Position numbers and translations under genes: made by a program. This document shows, one piece after another, positions 27,980 through 33,090 of a stretch of DNA of 64,000 bases. How positions within the stretch are numbered: the first letter of the stretch is position 1; every line of letters starts with the position of its first letter. Source of the DNA: an uncultured Rickettsiales bacterium. GTDB taxonomy: Bacteria; Pseudomonadota; Alphaproteobacteria; Rs-D84. The stretch covers positions 78,411 to 142,410 of the forward strand of contig URBZ01000002.1 of NCBI GenBank assembly GCA_900546225.1. Reading direction: 5' to 3'. Under the pieces are notes generated by a model. It was not told where the DNA came from and did not search any database. It was given only the letters and a program-made list of their open reading frames with translations.

Positions 27980-29152
27980 ATGAAAGGTGCCACAATGCTT
28001 TTACGCAATAATTTATTTCGTTTTGAGAAGCCGGACAATTTCCAAAATCTTTCAACTTCCAGATTAATGAATGGTTTGGTTTATGATTTTAACGATCCTT
28101 ATATTCCATTTTTTACACCAATTGGTACACGACTGTTCAACAACATAGAAAATATATTTAAACAAAATGCTATGCGTATTGATTGTAATGAGGTTATTAT
28201 TCCACAATTAATGACCACAGAGTTATTGACCCAAGGTCAAGAAATTGGTGAATTGTTTGGGCGTAAAGTAATGCATCTATCAGGTACGATGGCAGAGTTC
28301 CATCTTCTTACATCTCCGGAGATGATGTTTATAAATATGTTGAAAAAAAATAACATAGAGAGTAATGCGCTGCCAATACATTACTATTTTGTATCTAATT
28401 TTTTCAGAGATATGCATGATCCAAAAAACATACTTCGAACTAAGCAATTGCGTGTTATTGCAGGTATTTCTTTTGACAAAACACAGAATGATAGATTGAA
28501 GACAGAAAATAAACTGTTACAAACTTTGCACAACACGTTTGTTGATTGTAAAGTCCCATTCTTAGCAGAGTATGGCTCTAGTGGATTTACGTGCGAATAT
28601 TTTTACATGAATTCCAAAGAAACAGAAAACTATATAATTCCAAGCATAAATCCGCACAAGAAAACAAAAGCTCTCAGCTTCGCAATGATTTATGATTATG
28701 GTCAAGAATGTCCATTTGATGTTTTACACAAAAATTCAGTAACAGGGCTAAAAGACAAAACCTTTATGACATCATACGCAATAAGCGCCCAGCGATTACT
28801 TTATGTAATAATGGATTCGTGCAGAGATAGCAAAGGCTTTTCAATGCCATCTAATATCCGTCCATACGATGTCGCGCTCATAACAAATGAACAGCAATCG
28901 GATATAGCGCAGAAAATGGCGCGAGATTTGTCATGCAGTGGTATCTCTTCCTATATAGACAATATGTTTACTAAGGCGCACGTTAAGCGTCTGGATGTTG
29001 CCGATTACATAGGAGTCGGATTAAAAATTGTTAATAAGAATGATAAGTTTACTGTCTTTAACCGCGATGGAGAGATGCTGATAACAGGCTTCGCACCAGA
29101 CCTGATTATTTCAGCGGTTAAGGATTCGATTATAGCACAAAAACAAAAATAG
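27980..29152 (+). CDS. class IIa aminoacyl-tRNA synthetase paralog (ProRS/HisRS/ThrRS-like catalytic core plus a C-terminal anticodon-binding-like domain)
   Basis: 390 aa from ATG 27980 (RBS GGAGAGGA). Motif-1-like VIIPQLMTTELLTQGQ. Motif-2-like FFRDMHDPKNILRTKQLRVIAGISFD. Motif-3-like SYAISAQRLLYVIMD. C-terminal PYDVALITNEQ...GISSYIDN...DYIGVGLKIVNK..FTVFNRDGE resembles the HGTP anticodon-binding fold. Confidence 0.55.
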   Translation: MKGATMLLRNNLFRFEKPDNFQNLSTSRLMNGLVYDFNDPYIPFFTPIGTRLFNNIENIFKQNAMRIDCNEVIIPQLMTTELLTQGQEIGELFGRKVMHLSGTMAEFHLLTSPEMMFINMLKKNNIESNALPIHYYFVSNFFRDMHDPKNILRTKQLRVIAGISFDKTQNDRLKTENKLLQTLHNTFVDCKVPFLAEYGSSGFTCEYFYMNSKETENYIIPSINPHKKTKALSFAMIYDYGQECPFDVLHKNSVTGLKDKTFMTSYAISAQRLLYVIMDSCRDSKGFSMPSNIRPYDVALITNEQQSDIAQKMARDLSCSGISSYIDNMFTKAHVKRLDVADYIGVGLKIVNKNDKFTVFNRDGEMLITGFAPDLIISAVKDSIIAQKQK

Positions 29153-29221
29153 TTAAACTGCTTTGCGAGAAGAAAGATACTGTAATTTTCAGAAACAGTA
29201 TAGTGGCTTTTTGAAAAACCA

Positions 29222-29252
29222 GAAAATGCTTGGTAATAATTACATTACTACC
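29222..29252. terminator. bidirectional terminator between the convergent aaRS-like gene and the MccF-like gene (GCTTGGTA...TACCAAGC flanked by A/T runs)
   Basis: 8-bp inverted repeat with A-run upstream and T-run downstream. Confidence 0.5.
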
Positions 29253-29271
29253 AAGCAAAATTTTTACCCGC

Positions 29272-31236: not shown

Positions 31237-31237
31237 A

Positions 31238-32068
31238 CTACACTTCCTTTGATGTAAATAATTCTGGGTCTATTTCGGGATTTTGCTTTTTTAATATGAA
31301 TATAGTGAATCCCATATGTGATAAATTATCACGGAATAACAGCATATAATCTAGATATTGTTTTTTTAATACTTCAAACGCAGCAGGGGACAGCGCTTTT
31401 AAATGTTCCCTTTGTAATATATCTGTACAGAATTTTTTAACTGTTTCATCCGAAATATAATCAAACTTAAAATCCTTTTGAACGAATATTTCAAACATGT
31501 CTTGGGTAAAGAATTTTTGCCAGTACGGCTTATCATGCGGTTGTATATTGACTTTAATTGCTGCCGAAACATCTGACACCAATTTTTCGGACGGTGTTTT
31601 GACATAATACATCGGTATGGCAGCCAAAAAACCAGAATCCTTTAATACTCTCTTATATTCGGTTAAGGCCGCTTGGCGATTATCAACCAGGGATGTAACA
31701 TTTCCACAGAAAACCACATCAAAACATTTGTCCGGTAACGACAAATTCGTTGCGTCGTCTTTTTTGAAAGATGTGATGTCTGCCACCCCCAATTGTTTTG
31801 CGCGCTCTGCTGCGGTATTTAAACTGTTTTCATTTATATCTATGCCCATAACATTACAGCCTGCCAGCTGGGCCATTTCCAGGGCGGTTACTCCTGTACT
31901 TGTTCCAATGTCTAACATGCTTTTCCCAGGACGCAGCCCACACATTTGCATTATATAGGATACAGATTTGCTACCACCAGGGGTACGATTTGTCTCTTTT
32001 ACTAGTCCAATAATCTCATTGTATGACATATTTTTTATGTCGCCAGGCGTTAGTTTATCTAATTGCAT
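31238..32068 (-). CDS. class I SAM-dependent methyltransferase
   Basis: 276 aa; motif I MLDIGTSTGVTALEMA, motif II MGIDINE, motif III FDVVFCGN. Confidence 0.7.
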   Translation of the reverse strand: MQLDKLTPGDIKNMSYNEIIGLVKETNRTPGGSKSVSYIMQMCGLRPGKSMLDIGTSTGVTALEMAQLAGCNVMGIDINENSLNTAAERAKQLGVADITSFKKDDATNLSLPDKCFDVVFCGNVTSLVDNRQAALTEYKRVLKDSGFLAAIPMYYVKTPSEKLVSDVSAAIKVNIQPHDKPYWQKFFTQDMFEIFVQKDFKFDYISDETVKKFCTDILQREHLKALSPAAFEVLKKQYLDYMLLFRDNLSHMGFTIFILKKQNPEIDPELFTSKEV

Positions 32069-32085
32069 CGCAGATCCTTTGTGTT

Positions 32086-33090
32086 TTATGGAAATATGAT
32101 TTTGTCATGGTCGCGTAACAGTAATGTGCAGTCGCGAATATCATTATGTTGTAGCAGCCATAGTATAAATCGTTCTATTCCTAATCCGAATCCGCTGGTC
32201 TGAACGGGGCGGATTTTGCGCATTTCCGAATACCATTTATATCCTGTAGCATCTATCTGATGATAGTCTAACGATTCTTGCAAATCCAGTTGTGTCAACA
32301 CGCGTTGGCCAGAGCCTAATATTTCGCCAATTCCGGCCAGCAAATCTGCAGTCAGCGAAAATTTAGTTCCCTGTTCCTTTGCTTGGTAAAAGGGTACTGC
32401 ACACCATGGCATATTGGTAAGCCATATAAAATCACCATAGCGTTTCAATAGTTCTTGTTCGCCAATTCCCGATATTGCAAAGATTCCTTTGTCCAATTCT
32501 GTTATTGCATCTTTAACATTTGACAACTCAAATACAGCATCTTCAAATCTTATAGAGAGGAACTTTTTATTCAACATCGCATCTAAATGACTTGTTGAGC
32601 CAGCAATATCTGTAATCTCCTGTGTGCAATGTTTTTTTAATGCTGCTACCAGGTGCTTGATATATTCTTCTGCCAGTTGCTTTATATCATCCAATGTTCC
32701 ATAGATTTCAACCTCTGAATGTATAAATTCATTTAAATGACGGGCATCTATTTGTTCGCCACGAAATGATGGCATTATGTAATAAGCGCCTGTGCCAGAT
32801 AGGCGTGTACCTATTTCCAGTGAAAATTGCATAGAATCCGCCAGAAAAACATCGTTTTTGCGTATATTGATTTTTACAGGCAAAGAATCACTACCTAATC
32901 CCATTGGACTGCTGATTGATCCAGTCGTCACAGGAAACATCATAGGCGAAATATTTTTGCCTTTATAAAACTCATACGTTTCATTCAGTATGACAGATAA
33001 AATTTTTGATAGATGCTTATACCAATCGGAAGTTAAAAGGCATTCCAAATGGCCGTTGGGATCTTTATAAGAAGCCGGAGAGCTTATCAT
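32086..33090 (-). CDS. AsnRS/AspRS-type class IIb catalytic core without an anticodon-binding domain (archaeal AS-AR-like amino-acid-adenylating enzyme/amidoligase)
   Basis: 334 aa. Motif 2 YYIMPSFRGEQIDARHLNEFIHSEVE (FRxE...RHLxEF is an AsnRS hallmark). DLLAGIGEILGSGQR. Motif 3 GFGLGIERFILWLLQHNDIRD. No N-terminal OB-fold. Confidence 0.7.
   Translation of the reverse strand: MISSPASYKDPNGHLECLLTSDWYKHLSKILSVILNETYEFYKGKNISPMMFPVTTGSISSPMGLGSDSLPVKINIRKNDVFLADSMQFSLEIGTRLSGTGAYYIMPSFRGEQIDARHLNEFIHSEVEIYGTLDDIKQLAEEYIKHLVAALKKHCTQEITDIAGSTSHLDAMLNKKFLSIRFEDAVFELSNVKDAITELDKGIFAISGIGEQELLKRYGDFIWLTNMPWCAVPFYQAKEQGTKFSLTADLLAGIGEILGSGQRVLTQLDLQESLDYHQIDATGYKWYSEMRKIRPVQTSGFGLGIERFILWLLQHNDIRDCTLLLRDHDKIIFP

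What the first reader, a model, noticed from the sequence alone, without database searches (positions are those of the whole stretch)
27980..33090. Candidate aminoacyl-nucleotide antibiotic biosynthesis/immunity cluster built from two aminoacyl-tRNA-synthetase paralogs
The AT-rich island carries a tight minus-strand operon with four genes. They are a free-standing AsnRS-type catalytic core without anticodon-binding domain, two class I SAM methyltransferases and an MccF-like S66 peptidase. Convergent to it is a second, compact class IIa aaRS homolog (ProRS/HisRS-like, degenerate motifs 1-3 plus an anticodon-binding-like domain). MccF is the self-immunity enzyme that cleaves the aminoacyl-nucleotide amide bond of processed microcin C and of aminoacyl-sulfamoyl-adenylates. 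Antibiotic clusters that poison aaRSs commonly carry aaRS paralogs, either as resistant targets or as adenylate-forming biosynthetic enzymes. Taken together this fits a microcin-C-like Trojan-horse or aaRS-inhibitor producing locus more than housekeeping metabolism. It uses aaRS-fold adenylating enzymes and methyltransferases in place of MccB/MccD/MccE. None of these genes has a housekeeping counterpart elsewhere in the window. This is an inference from domain composition only.
Basis: partly seen in the sequence, partly recalled or inferred. Interest (0 to 1): 0.85.

Follow-up and report, generated by a model that had tools for sequence, protein, structure and literature searches.

The report
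Agrocin 84-like antibiotic gene cassette
A mobile 5.5-kb, five-gene cassette in an uncultured, probably gut bacterium shares its core enzymes with the agrocin 84 and microcin C antibiotic pathways, so it most likely makes a stable aminoacyl-nucleotide mimic that poisons a tRNA synthetase and also protects its own cell from it.

Summary
Five intact genes lie at 27959-33090: an AsnRS-type catalytic core, two class I SAM methyltransferases and an S66 peptidase in one minus-strand operon, with a convergent degenerate ProRS-like gene.

The AsnRS core is 45% identical to AgnA of the agrocin 84 plasmid pAgK84. MT-A is 45% identical to AgnB1 and is also a full-length MccD homolog. The S66 protein matches AgnC5 and MccF, keeping the catalytic triad and the adenine-stacking Trp. 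The ProRS-like family matches AgnC1 only at profile level.

AgnA-like genes occur in 385 species genomes. In 80 sampled loci an S66 gene lies within 10 kb in 61, and an MccD-like methyltransferase in 39. Related clusters add resistant-type LeuRS, ProRS, MetRS or GlyRS copies, MFS exporters, or an MccE-like GNAT fused to the AgnA-like enzyme.

The window cassette is a minimal variant. It has no exporter, no resistant aaRS and no uptake-moiety genes, and it sits in a tRNA-Ser-linked defence island. Nearly identical copies (98.7%) occur in other genomic contexts. The product, the target (ProRS is only a guess) and the chemistry are all inferred; even AgnA's own reaction has never been shown experimentally. 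I rate it a new variant of a known kind.

The parts
32086..33090 (-). AgnA-like stand-alone AsnRS-type class II catalytic core (334 aa). It is the first gene of the operon and the proposed warhead synthase that forms the acyl-N-P(nucleotide) bond.
   Evidence: Pfam tRNA-synt_2 at 7.6e-33. 45% identity over 336 aa to AgnA of pAgK84, E 5e-104. Motif 2 (FRGE..RHL.EF.H.E.E) and motif 3 (GFGLGIERF) are invariant in 30 homologs. The model has pLDDT 89 and best matches AsnRS 1x54 at TM 0.86.
31238..32068 (-). MT-A: a class I SAM-dependent transferase homologous to AgnB1 and to MccD. Its proposed role is alkylation of the nucleotide/phosphoramidate part of the product.
   Evidence: Methyltransf_11 at 2.5e-20. 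45% identity to the methyltransferase adjacent to agnA, E 1e-74. 27% identity over 262 aa to E. coli MccD, E 1e-30. All 37 family members hit MccD over ~255 aa; the other cluster methyltransferase families do not, apart from a weak partial hit for 2 of 4 c24 members. The median gap to the AgnA-like gene in other genomes is 46 bp.
30346..31236 (-). MT-B: a second class I SAM methyltransferase (296 aa). It is a lineage-specific tailoring enzyme of unknown substrate.
   Evidence: Methyltransf_25/12/11 at 1e-9 to 1e-7. There is no homolog in pAgK84 or in the mcc operon. Outside the near-identical copies L001-L003, homologs were found only in L009, L026, L027 and L092.
29272..30312 (-). MccF/AgnC5-type S66 serine peptidase (346 aa). 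Its proposed role is self-protection by cleaving the acyl-N bond of the aminoacyl-nucleotide mimic.
   Evidence: Peptidase_S66 and S66C domains. PDB matches: 5f5x at E 3e-103, E. coli MccF at 1e-35, LdcA at no better than 2e-16. 29% identity to AgnC5, E 3e-39. The triad S116/E245/H316 is invariant in 54 of 54 cluster S66 proteins. W183 aligns with MccF W186, and that position is Trp in 47 of 54.
29227..29257 (.). Hairpin between the convergent S66 and ProRS-like genes; a likely bidirectional terminator.
   Evidence: 14-bp stem followed by a T-run. This is a consensus match only.
27980..29152 (+). Degenerate ProRS-like class IIa protein with an anticodon-binding-like C-terminal domain (390 aa from ATG 27980; alternative starts at 27959 and 27995). 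It is the proposed AgnC1-type biosynthetic partner.
   Evidence: NCBIfam ProRS models score 77-84 bits, far below their cut-offs. All top 50 fold matches are ProRS. The motif 2 Arg and motif 3 Arg are invariant, while FRDE is changed to FRDM. hhalign against the AgnC1/c16 family gives 95.6%, E 1e-8, over 319 columns. The subfamily has only 20 clusters, and the members examined all sit in related clusters.
27839..33314 (.). The whole cassette: a block 98.7% identical to contigs L001-L003, beyond which the right flank is unrelated and the left flank only partly similar.
   Evidence: blastn.
26159..26248 (+). tRNA-Ser(TGA) at the left edge of the AT-rich island (~26.25-45 kb) that carries the cassette.
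   Evidence: ARAGORN, Rfam, GC profile.

Best explanation
The five genes form a minimal, horizontally mobile agrocin 84-like (agn-like) cassette for making a non-hydrolysable aminoacyl- or acyl-adenylate mimic, together with the enzyme that destroys it inside the producer. Every biochemical step below is inferred from homology.

1. The AgnA-like AsnRS core uses ATP to join a carboxylic acid or amide substrate to a nucleotide through an N-acyl phosphoramidate bond. This is the role proposed, but never demonstrated, for AgnA. One plausible route follows asparagine synthetase A chemistry: adenylate the carboxylate, amidate it, then let the new amide nitrogen attack a second ATP.
2. The degenerate ProRS-like enzyme, the counterpart of AgnC1, selects or activates the amino-acid-derived moiety, or adds a further aminoacyl group.
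3. MT-A, an MccD/AgnB1 homolog, alkylates the nucleotide or phosphoramidate part. MT-B adds a second methyl group.
4. The MccF/AgnC5-type S66 peptidase binds the nucleobase on its conserved Trp and cleaves the acyl-N bond, protecting the producer's own aaRS.

The likely biological role is interbacterial antagonism by aaRS inhibition. The target is unknown. ProRS is the best guess (about 0.35), because related clusters pair a degenerate ProRS-like gene with an extra bona fide ProRS.
For: - Homology to the agn cluster: AgnA 45% (E 5e-104), AgnB1 45% (E 1e-74), AgnC5 29% (E 3e-39). AgnC1-family match by hhalign at 95.6%. The review PMC8323819 records AgnA as the proposed phosphoramidate-forming enzyme, AgnC1 as remotely ProRS-like and AgnB1 as a SAM enzyme.
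- Links to microcin C: MT-A to MccD at E 1e-30 over the full length. S66 to MccF at E 6e-38, with the triad and the adenine-stacking Trp conserved.
- Genomic linkage: 385 species genomes carry an AgnA-like gene. Among 80 sampled loci, an S66 gene lies within 10 kb in 61 (47 within 3 kb) and an MccD-like methyltransferase in 39 (30 within 1 kb).
- Independent immunity and export hallmarks in related clusters. LeuRS 40% identical to the resistant AgnB2, plus an MFS exporter, in the Xenorhabdus, Rahnella and Providencia type. A bona fide extra ProRS, MetRS or GlyRS next to degenerate paralogs. An MccE2-like GNAT fused to the AgnA-like enzyme, plus an MFS transporter, in Pantoea.
- NUDIX genes flank the module in L001-L003 and L092, and also occur on pAgK84.
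- The genes are intact and under purifying selection: dN/dS is 0.04-0.56 against L001, and dN is 0.04-0.28 against L092 with saturated dS and no frameshifts.
- The ATP-binding arginines are invariant in both aaRS-like families.
Against: - No product, activity or target has been observed, and the agrocin 84 pathway itself is experimentally unresolved.
- The cassette has no exporter, no bona fide resistant aaRS and none of the agnD/E/F uptake-moiety or agnC2/C4/C6/C7 tailoring genes.
- The link from the ProRS-like family to AgnC1 exists only at profile level and could reflect generic class IIa similarity. HMMER alone gives E 0.4-0.9, and an HisRS-like family also scores 93%.
- Pocket residues that I recall as recognising the Asp side chain in MccF (N220, R246, K247) are E, E and S here, so the substrate is not processed microcin C.
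- ProRS-like partners also occur with LeuRS immunity genes, which weakens the ProRS-target guess.
Confidence: 0.7

Rival explanations
1. The chemistry is the same, but the use is intracellular. The exporter-less cassette acts as a small-molecule toxin-antidote pair (addiction module or abortive-infection/anti-phage defence): the AgnA-like pathway makes an aaRS poison and the S66 enzyme normally removes it.
For: The cassette lies in a defence island with type II CRISPR-Cas and a PDC-S06 ATPase. Relatives sit beside GmrSD and KAP NTPase, CTD10/MC6/MC7 and Fic, or integrases. The cassette contains no transporter.
Against: There is no match to any PADLOC model beyond generic methyltransferases. 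No AgnA-like gene was found on 2.9 million viral contigs. Fuller relatives carry MFS exporters and resistant aaRS copies typical of secreted antibiotics. Antagonism loci and defence genes often share mobile islands, so the context does not discriminate. No sensor or regulator is evident.
Confidence: 0.1
2. The product is not a nucleotide conjugate. The two aaRS-like enzymes act as ATP-dependent amide or peptide ligases that make a methylated amino-acid amide or dipeptide, and the S66 enzyme acts as an ordinary peptidase in maturation or recycling.
For: AsnA-type enzymes release AMP and form simple amides. ATP-grasp ligases recur in related clusters. MT-B is generic.
Against: The S66 proteins keep the Trp that stacks on adenine in MccF. 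MT-A is homologous to MccD, which acts on a peptidyl-nucleotide. AgnA belongs to a cluster whose product is a nucleotide phosphoramidate. Resistant-type aaRS copies, NUDIX genes and nucleoside phosphorylases recur in related clusters.
Confidence: 0.12
3. The cassette is an incomplete remnant of a larger agn-like cluster and no longer makes anything useful.
For: Compared with pAgK84 and the Xenorhabdus-type clusters it lacks an exporter, a resistant aaRS and tailoring genes. It also lacks the 409-aa DnaJ-like gene that accompanies the ProRS-like gene in L007, L092 and L094.
Against: All five ORFs are intact, keep the same lengths across relatives and show purifying selection. The same five-gene set is conserved at 98.7% identity in different flanks. 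Near-identical (>=90%) AsnRS-core variants are seen on 60 or more contigs. Catalytic residues are retained.
Confidence: 0.06
4. The genes are housekeeping: a tRNA-independent asparagine synthetase, an LdcA murein-recycling carboxypeptidase and unrelated methyltransferases that happen to be adjacent.
For: NCBI pipelines name homologs 'asparagine synthetase A', 'asparaginase' or 'LD-carboxypeptidase'.
Against: The proteins score below every equivalog cut-off: 245 against 389 for AsnA-type models and 65 against 378 for LdcA. The AsnRS core scores only E 3.8e-5 against the characterised archaeal AS-AR. The cassette is low-GC DNA in a tRNA-linked island and moves as a unit. The S66 and methyltransferase linkage holds across at least nine phyla.
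Confidence: 0.02

Closest known systems
Agrocin 84 biosynthesis/immunity cluster (agn) of pAgK84, Rhizobium rhizogenes K84
   Same: It shares the AgnA-type AsnRS-derived adenylating enzyme (45% identity), the adjacent SAM enzyme AgnB1 (45%), the MccF-like S66 peptidase AgnC5 (29%) and a ProRS-like partner (AgnC1, profile-level match). The agnA-then-methyltransferase gene order is the same, and NUDIX genes lie nearby in relatives.
   Different: The window cassette has 5 genes against 17. It lacks the resistant LeuRS AgnB2, the exporter AgnG, the agnD/E/F genes and the agnC2/C4/C6/C7 tailoring genes. It has an extra methyltransferase (MT-B) with no agn homolog. It is chromosomal, in a defence island of an uncultured (probably gut) bacterium, rather than on a conjugative plasmid of a rhizobium.
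Microcin C (mcc) operon of E. coli
   Same: MT-A is a full-length homolog of MccD (E 1e-30). The S66 protein is a homolog of the immunity peptidase MccF (E 6e-38), with the catalytic triad and adenine-stacking Trp conserved. A Pantoea relative fuses an MccE2-like GNAT to the AgnA-like enzyme.
   Different: There is no MccB (ThiF-type) enzyme, no MccA precursor peptide (no short ORF ending in Asn) and no MccC exporter. The N-P bond would be made by a class II aaRS-fold enzyme, so the product is presumably not ribosomally derived. The MccF pocket residues N220, R246 and K247 are E, E and S here.
agn-like BGCs predicted in Actinobacteria and Ensifer sp. ENS09 (Travin, Severinov & Dubiley 2021, PMC8323819)
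   Same: The concept is the same: agn homologs combined with a different cluster-encoded aaRS (MetRS), implying other aaRS targets. Our Streptomyces, Nonomuraea and Photobacterium loci fit this picture.
   Different: Those BGCs were found with AgnC1 as bait in about 20 genomes. The window belongs to a far wider AgnA/MccD-like/MccF-like set of 385 species spanning at least nine phyla, including gut and rumen Alphaproteobacteria, CPR and Clostridia. The window cassette has no bona fide aaRS copy.
Archaeal-type asparagine synthetase A (AS-AR) and bacterial AsnA
   Same: These are also free-standing AspRS/AsnRS-like catalytic cores without an anticodon-binding domain, and they adenylate a carboxylate.
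   Different: Orthology is not supported. The NCBIfam score is 245 bits against a 389-bit cut-off. The match to P. abyssi AS-AR is E 3.8e-5 over residues 20-148 only. E. coli AsnA is not among the hits. The protein is structurally closest to true AsnRS. The genomic context is a conflict-type cluster, not Asn metabolism.
Phosmidosine (Streptomyces) and ascamycin: small aminoacyl-nucleotide or aminoacyl-sulfamoyl-nucleoside antibiotics
   Same: Phosmidosines are phosphoramidate nucleotide antibiotics that include N-methyl variants. From my own memory, they consist of prolyl N-acyl phosphoramidate of 8-oxoadenosine with an O-methyl on phosphorus. That would match a ProRS-like enzyme plus two methyltransferases and no carrier moiety. 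Also from memory, ascamycin uses AlaRS-like enzymes to N-aminoacylate a sulfamoyl adenosine.
   Different: I know of no phosmidosine gene cluster and found none, so this is a chemical analogy only. The cassette has no gene for 8-oxidation of adenine. Nothing about it was tested here.

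Membership tests
Agrocin 84-type (agn-like) cluster | AgnA homolog: a stand-alone AsnRS-derived class II adenylating enzyme | tested here: met
   45% identity over 336 aa, E 5e-104. Motifs 2 and 3 are invariant.
Agrocin 84-type (agn-like) cluster | AgnB1 homolog: a SAM enzyme immediately downstream of agnA | tested here: met
   MT-A is 45% identical to Arad_15003, E 1e-74, in the same gene order.
Agrocin 84-type (agn-like) cluster | AgnC5 homolog (MccF-like S66 peptidase) | tested here: met
   29% identity over 352 aa, E 3e-39. The triad and Trp are shared.
Agrocin 84-type (agn-like) cluster | AgnC1 homolog (remote ProRS-like protein) | tested here: inconclusive
   hhalign of the class IIa family against AgnC1+c16 gives 95.6%, E 1e-8, over 319 columns. 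HMMER alone is not significant, at E 0.4-0.9. An HisRS-like family also scores 93%.
Agrocin 84-type (agn-like) cluster | Cluster-encoded resistant copy of the target aaRS (AgnB2-type) | tested here: not met
   There is no bona fide ProRS, LeuRS, MetRS or ArgRS in the window. The only aaRS is a GlyRS in host DNA at 21249-22610. The ProRS-like protein scores 77-84 bits against cut-offs of 307-558.
Agrocin 84-type (agn-like) cluster | Dedicated exporter (AgnG) and uptake-moiety genes (agnD/E/F) | tested here: not met
   No homologs were found in the ORFs within 7 kb of the AgnA-like gene in the window or in any of the 86 surveyed loci. None of the five genes is a transporter.
Agrocin 84-type (agn-like) cluster | The product is an N-acyl phosphoramidate nucleotide that inhibits an aaRS | not testable with these tools
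   This needs expression with LC-MS and aaRS inhibition assays.
Microcin C (mcc) cluster | MccB ThiF-type adenylyltransferase and an MccA precursor peptide ending in Asn | tested here: not met
   There is no significant BLAST hit of the module proteins to MccB. No short ORF ending in Asn lies in the module's non-coding DNA.
Microcin C (mcc) cluster | Accessory enzymes MccD (SAM-dependent alkyl transfer to the phosphoramidate) and MccF (immunity peptidase) | tested here: met
   MT-A to MccD: E 1e-30 over 262 aa. S66 to MccF: E 6e-38 over 343 aa. All 37 MT-A family members hit MccD.
MccF-type nucleotide-binding S66 peptidase (as opposed to LdcA) | Ser-His-Glu triad plus the Trp that stacks on the adenine (MccF S118, W186) | tested here: met
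   S116, E245, H316 and W183 align with MccF S118, E243, H311 and W186. The roles of S118 and W186 are taken from PMC8323819.
MccF-type nucleotide-binding S66 peptidase (as opposed to LdcA) | Specificity pocket for an acidic aminoacyl side chain (MccF N220, R246, K247; roles recalled from memory, not verified) | tested here: not met
   The window protein has E220, E248 and S249; AgnC5 has E, E and A.
LdcA murein LD-carboxypeptidase | Orthology to muramoyltetrapeptide carboxypeptidase | tested here: not met
   NF008424 scores 65 bits against a 378-bit cut-off. PDB LdcA entries score E 2e-16 to 1e-6 and align only partially.
Asparagine synthetase A (AS-AR/AsnA) | Score above the equivalog cut-off, or clear orthology to a characterised enzyme | tested here: not met
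   NF005055 scores 245 against 389; NF005053 scores 238 against 322. PDB 3p8t scores E 3.8e-5.
Bona fide prolyl-tRNA synthetase | Score above the ProRS equivalog cut-offs, with intact motif 2 | tested here: not met
   77-84 bits against 307-558. Motif 2 FRDE is FRDM, and the downstream R.REF is RTKQL. By contrast the L004 425-aa and L060 416-aa proteins pass, at 407 and 426 bits against a 306.7-bit cut-off.

The most novel reading that the evidence does not exclude
The AgnA-like/MccD-like/MccF-like triad is a widespread, re-targetable platform in which a degenerate aaRS paralog sets which synthetase is poisoned. In this window the exporter-less cassette is not a secreted antibiotic pathway at all. 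Instead it is an intracellular small-molecule toxin-antidote system, kept in a defence island, that shuts down translation (for example on phage attack or on loss of the island) when the S66 antidote is outpaced.
Probability: 0.1. Interest if true: 0.9.

Novelty: new variant of a known kind. Interest (0 to 1): 0.62.

Why it matters
Agrocin 84 is the only characterised compound of its class, and its biosynthesis is still unresolved. This five-gene cassette pares the problem down to what may be the minimal machinery: AgnA-like, AgnB1/MccD-like and AgnC1-like enzymes, one extra methyltransferase, and an MccF-like hydrolase. That makes the key N-acyl phosphoramidate chemistry directly testable in a small construct.

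The survey also shows that the AgnA/S66 pairing is far more widespread than the roughly 20 genomes noted in 2021. It occurs in 385 species across at least nine phyla, including gut and rumen commensals and CPR bacteria. Cluster-encoded ProRS, MetRS, GlyRS and LeuRS copies point to a family of natural aaRS inhibitors with different targets. That is a resource for antibiotic discovery and for understanding antagonism in the gut microbiome.

It also flags a probable systematic misannotation of these enzymes as 'asparagine synthetase A', 'asparaginase' and 'LD-carboxypeptidase'.

Tried and rejected
- Known defence systems: PADLOC gave nothing for the aaRS-like or S66 proteins.
- Phage carriage: no AgnA-like gene on IMG/VR contigs. 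The hits in the phage GenBank set are ordinary AsnRS-level matches at 24-28% identity.
- Microcin C membership: no MccB homolog and no MccA-like ORF.
- Riboswitch, T-box or other leader RNAs: Rfam finds only the three tRNAs in the window.
- Promoter and terminator scans: counts are no higher than in shuffled sequence. Only the convergent-gene hairpin is notable.
- Terminal repeats or att sites for the island: no convincing direct repeats apart from the CRISPR array. No integrase turned up among the island ORFs of 100 aa or more; most of these were scanned with Pfam or PADLOC, the rest were not.
- The idea that the cluster nucleoside phosphorylase (c13) is the Mtn nucleosidase needed by MccD-type enzymes: not supported. 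The best match is DeoD-type at 68 bits, with Mtn at only 35 bits.
- The idea that the window's DnaJ-domain ORF and 408-aa ORF (37041-38953) are the DnaJ-like partner seen next to the ProRS-like gene in L007, L092 and L094: rejected, no similarity.
- Host identification: a ParC-like protein has hundreds of near-identical metagenomic copies but no organism names.
- Literature: searches found no paper describing this cluster family beyond the 2021 review. The Kim et al. 2006 and MccF structure papers are not held.

Full report
**Observation**

The window carries the five ORFs exactly as described. A minus-strand operon runs 33090 to 29272, with intergenic gaps of 17, 1 and 33 bp. It encodes a 334-aa class II catalytic core (Pfam tRNA-synt_2, 7.6e-33, no anticodon-binding domain), two class I SAM methyltransferases (MT-A at 31238-32068 and MT-B at 30346-31236) and an S66 peptidase at 29272-30312.

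Convergent to the operon is a 385-397-aa ProRS-like ORF (27959, 27980 or 27995 to 29152). A 14-bp-stem hairpin at 29227-29257 separates them. The ProRS-like protein is clearly degenerate. Pfam tRNA-synt_2b scores 20.5 bits, and the NCBIfam ProRS models score 77-84 bits against cut-offs of 307-558.

Structure prediction supports both fold assignments. The AsnRS-core model (pLDDT 89, pTM 0.90) best matches AsnRS catalytic domains at TM 0.82-0.86. All top 50 matches of the ProRS-like model (pLDDT 68) are ProRS structures, and the best, the minimal R. palustris enzyme, aligns over essentially its full length, anticodon-binding domain included.

The module lies in a low-GC island (0.33-0.39 against 0.45-0.50) that begins right after tRNA-Ser(TGA) at 26159-26248.

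**What the proteins are not**

The AsnRS core is not an orthologue of a characterised asparagine synthetase. It scores below every NCBIfam cut-off (245 against 389 bits), reaches only E 3.8e-5 against the P. abyssi AS-AR structure, and does not hit E. coli AsnA at all.

The S66 protein is not LdcA. It scores 65 bits against a 378-bit cut-off, and PDB LdcA entries reach E 2e-16 at best. It hits E. coli and B. anthracis MccF at about 1e-35 and the B. anthracis Ba3275 structure at 3e-103. None of the proteins matches a catalogued anti-phage system.

**The key identification**

A protein search of plasmids showed that the AsnRS core is 45% identical over its full length to AgnA, annotated 'agrocin 84 synthetase', of pAgK84. 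The gene next to agnA, a SAM methyltransferase called AgnB1 in the literature, is 45% identical to MT-A (E 1e-74). The 'MccF-like' AgnC5 of the same cluster is 29% identical to the window S66 protein (E 3e-39).

The 2021 review by Travin, Severinov and Dubiley (PMC8323819) makes four relevant points:
- The agrocin 84 pathway is experimentally unknown.
- AgnA was proposed to attach the pentanamide precursor to AMP through the phosphoramide bond.
- AgnC1 is remotely ProRS-like and is an alternative candidate for that step.
- AgnB1 and AgnC3 are SAM enzymes.

A profile-profile comparison links the window's ProRS-like family to the AgnC1 family over 319 columns (hhalign 95.6%, E 1e-8). HMMER alone does not see this link, so I treat it as probable but inconclusive. 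In summary, four of the five window genes have counterparts of varying certainty in the agn cluster. The fifth, MT-B, is an additional methyltransferase, as AgnC3 is in pAgK84, but the two are not detectably related.

**Links to microcin C**

Using the genuine mcc operon of plasmid MccC7-H22, MT-A and AgnB1 proved to be full-length homologs of MccD (27-28% identity over ~260 aa, E 1e-30 and 4e-28). All 37 members of the MT-A family hit MccD over ~255 aa. None of the c4, MT-B or c29 members does, and only 2 of 4 c24 members give a weak partial hit. MccD transfers the 3-amino-3-carboxypropyl group of SAM onto the phosphate of the peptidyl-nucleotide.

The window S66 protein aligns with MccF with the catalytic Ser, Glu and His (S116, E245, H316) invariant in all 54 cluster-linked S66 proteins. 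The Trp that stacks on the adenine in the MccF-processed McC complex (W186) is conserved as W183, is Trp in 47 of 54, and is also present in AgnC5.

Three MccF pocket residues that I recall as recognising the aspartyl side chain (N220, R246, K247; not verifiable here) are E, E and S in the window protein, and E, E and A in AgnC5. The acyl group recognised is therefore probably not aspartyl.

**A widespread, modular cluster family**

AgnA-like proteins form a large family, with more than 1,300 database clusters at E below 1e-5. They are encoded in 385 of the species-representative genomes scanned. These include gut and rumen Alphaproteobacteria, Streptomyces and Nonomuraea, Clostridia and Bacilli, Vibrio and Photobacterium, Enterobacterales, Legionella, Chloroflexota, Bacteroidota and several CPR lineages.

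In the 80 best genome loci an S66 gene lies within 10 kb of the AgnA-like gene in 61, and within 3 kb in 47. The hit density is 105 per Mb within 3 kb against 14 per Mb at 6-10 kb. An MccD-like methyltransferase is present in 39 of the 80, with a median gap of 46 bp. At least seven of the 19 loci without S66 have truncated flanks.

Around this core the clusters vary. They contain AlaRS-like, MetRS-like, HisRS-like and ProRS-like degenerate paralogs, ATP-grasp ligases, nucleoside phosphorylases, APH-type and P-loop kinases, and further methyltransferases.

Several carry independent hallmarks of aaRS-inhibitor producers:
- The Xenorhabdus, Rahnella and Providencia type has a full-length LeuRS 40% identical to the agrocin-resistant AgnB2. 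It also has a ProRS-like gene of the window's family and an MFS exporter.
- The L004-type clusters of gut and rumen Alphaproteobacteria pair a degenerate ProRS-like gene, overlapping the AgnA-like gene, with a second, bona fide ProRS (407 bits against a 306.7-bit cut-off) next to an integrase.
- Photobacterium pairs a degenerate MetRS-like gene with a bona fide MetRS. L066 and L072 each carry two GlyRS genes.
- In Pantoea plasmids the AgnA-like enzyme is fused to an N-terminal GNAT resembling the MccE2 immunity acetyltransferase, and it sits next to an MFS transporter. MccE2 acetylates the alpha-amino group of aminoacyl-nucleotides.

Three different microcin C/agrocin-type self-protection strategies are thus attached to AgnA-like genes. 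That is hard to explain unless these enzymes make aminoacyl-nucleotide-like aaRS poisons.

**The window cassette specifically**

A 5,477-bp block (27839-33314) is 98.7% identical to three metagenomic contigs, at least one of them from human gut (Hadza), in which the right flank is unrelated and the left flank only partly similar. There an ArgRS gene lies on one side and a NUDIX gene on the other. Near-identical (>=90%) AsnRS-core variants are seen on 60 or more contigs. The cassette is therefore a discrete unit that moves or recombines.

Its genes are intact and under purifying selection. dN/dS is 0.04-0.56 against L001. Against the ~70% relative L092, synonymous sites are saturated while dN is 0.04-0.28, and all lengths are identical.

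The ProRS-like subfamily is narrow, with 20 database clusters, and its members always appear in related settings:
- The same module plus a 409-aa DnaJ-like gene and NUDIX genes (L092).
- Directly overlapping an S66 gene (L096).
- With the DnaJ-like gene, in a cluster containing APS kinase, sulfotransferase and nucleotidyltransferase genes (L094).

The cassette lacks an exporter, a bona fide aaRS, the DnaJ-like partner and all agn tailoring and uptake-moiety genes. The surrounding island is a defence island with a CRISPR array, Cas1, Cas2, a 982-aa Cas9 and a PDC-S06 AAA_13 ATPase with a DUF2130 neighbour.

**Mechanism**

Every biochemical step here is inferred from homology. I propose that the AgnA-like enzyme forms the acyl-N-P(adenosine) bond. 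It may do so by asparagine synthetase A-type adenylation and amidation of a carboxylate, followed by attack of the amide nitrogen on a second ATP.

The ProRS-like enzyme would supply or select the amino-acid-derived moiety, or add a further aminoacyl group. MT-A would alkylate the phosphoramidate or nucleotide, as MccD does, and MT-B would add a second methyl group. The S66 enzyme would hydrolyse the acyl-N bond to protect the producer.

The target aaRS is unknown. ProRS is my best guess (about 0.35), by analogy with the L004-type clusters. However, ProRS-like partners also accompany LeuRS immunity genes in pAgK84 and Xenorhabdus, so fold does not dictate target.

A small methylated prolyl-nucleotide of the phosmidosine type would fit the gene set. 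Phosmidosines are phosphoramidate nucleotide antibiotics with N-methyl variants; the rest of that structure is from my memory. This is an analogy, not a finding.

**Rivals**

- Intracellular toxin-antidote or anti-phage use of the same chemistry. It fits the missing exporter and the defence-island context, but nothing else supports it.
- A non-nucleotide amide or peptide product. The conserved adenine-stacking Trp, the MccD homology and the AgnA relationship argue against it.
- A decayed remnant. Conservation and purifying selection argue against it.
- Housekeeping Asn synthesis plus murein recycling. This is effectively refuted.

**Novelty and verdict**

The kind of system is known: the agrocin 84 class of aaRS-inhibitor clusters, with agn-like BGCs already predicted in about 20 actinobacterial and Ensifer genomes. 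I found no paper describing the following points in the searchable literature:
- The AgnA/MccD-like/MccF-like core triad.
- Its breadth of 385 species, including gut commensals and CPR.
- The pairing of degenerate and bona fide aaRS genes.
- This minimal, exporter-less five-gene cassette.

I rate it a new variant of a known kind. My confidence in the overall functional assignment is about 0.7, and the interest score is 0.62. The cassette may be the smallest available handle on the unresolved N-acyl phosphoramidate chemistry, and it points to a family of natural inhibitors of several aaRSs. Everything biochemical still has to be shown.

Noticed in passing
window 43956-49264: A type II CRISPR-Cas locus: an array with a 66-nt period and at least 14 units (43956-44917), Cas2 (45019-45351, -), Cas1 (45353-46267, -) and a compact 982-aa Cas9 (46316-49264, -). 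The same CRISPR repeat occurs at the start of contig L001, which carries the near-identical cassette.
   Followed up: partly
window 39435-43105: An AAA_13 ATPase (766 aa; PADLOC candidate defence family PDC-S06 at 3e-91, with weak PrrC and AriA similarity), followed by a DUF2130 protein (450 aa). This is probably a two-gene defence candidate in the same island.
   Followed up: partly
window 21249-22610 (-): A GlyRS gene (40% identical to the L066 GlyRS) lies about 5 kb from the cassette, but in host-GC DNA outside the island. It is probably the housekeeping copy. I note it because some related clusters carry duplicated GlyRS genes.
   Followed up: partly
L094 9001-17929 and L095: A 55%-identical ProRS-like gene and its 414-aa DnaJ-like partner sit in a different cluster. 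That cluster has APS kinase, sulfotransferase, NTP_transferase, a PPDK-like enzyme, a GATase, a methyltransferase and NUDIX, but no AgnA-like or S66 gene. It may be a sulfamoyl-adenosine-type (ascamycin-like) pathway.
   Followed up: no
L088 8413-11236 (Pantoea agglomerans plasmids): A 531-aa fusion of an MccE2/RimL-like GNAT (residues ~1-185) to an AgnA-like enzyme (41% identical to AgnA), followed by an MFS transporter. This may be a two-gene producer, immunity and export unit.
   Followed up: partly
L004, L008, L010, L011, L013, L024; L064; L066, L072: Clusters pair a degenerate aaRS paralog with a bona fide extra aaRS of the same specificity: ProRS-like (145 bits) with ProRS (407 bits), and MetRS-like (222 bits) with MetRS (598 bits). 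L066 and L072 carry two GlyRS genes. This suggests that the paralog sets the amino acid and the intact copy gives resistance.
   Followed up: partly
window 27995-33090 compared with L092 and L007: Divergence inside the module is uneven. S66 and MT-A are far more conserved (dN 0.04-0.06; 88-89% amino-acid identity to L007) than the AgnA-like and ProRS-like genes (dN 0.28 and 0.18; 65-70% identity). The cause could be mosaic recombination or faster evolution of the two aaRS-like enzymes.
   Followed up: no
window 32878-32928 (AgnA-like residues 55-71): There is a family-specific invariant Gly/Ser-rich loop, TTGSxSSPMGxGSDSxP, also present in AgnA and the Pantoea fusion. The model predicts it with low confidence (pLDDT 56-65), and it lies N-terminal to the region that aligns with AsnRS by sequence. 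Its function is unknown.
   Followed up: no
L007, L092, L094 (gene next to the ProRS-like gene): A conserved 409-414-aa protein with a weak C-terminal DnaJ-domain hit is co-operonic with the ProRS-like gene in relatives. It is absent from the window cassette.
   Followed up: partly
database annotations of homologs: AgnA-like proteins are variously named 'asparagine synthetase A', 'asparaginase' or 'amino acid--tRNA ligase-related protein', and their S66 partners 'LD-carboxypeptidase'. These names are probably misleading for this family. AgnA itself scores below the NCBIfam cut-off (199 against 389 bits).
   Followed up: partly
window 25127-26038 (+): A glycosyltransferase family 6 gene (the blood-group transferase family, 3.4e-22) lies in host DNA just before the tRNA-Ser and the island.
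   Followed up: no
L001 8131-8538; L092 15652-18110; L087 25719-26660: NUDIX hydrolase genes recur next to AgnA-type modules: one in L001-L003, three plus a pyrophosphatase and ASCH domains in L092, and two on pAgK84. There is none next to the window copy.
   Followed up: no
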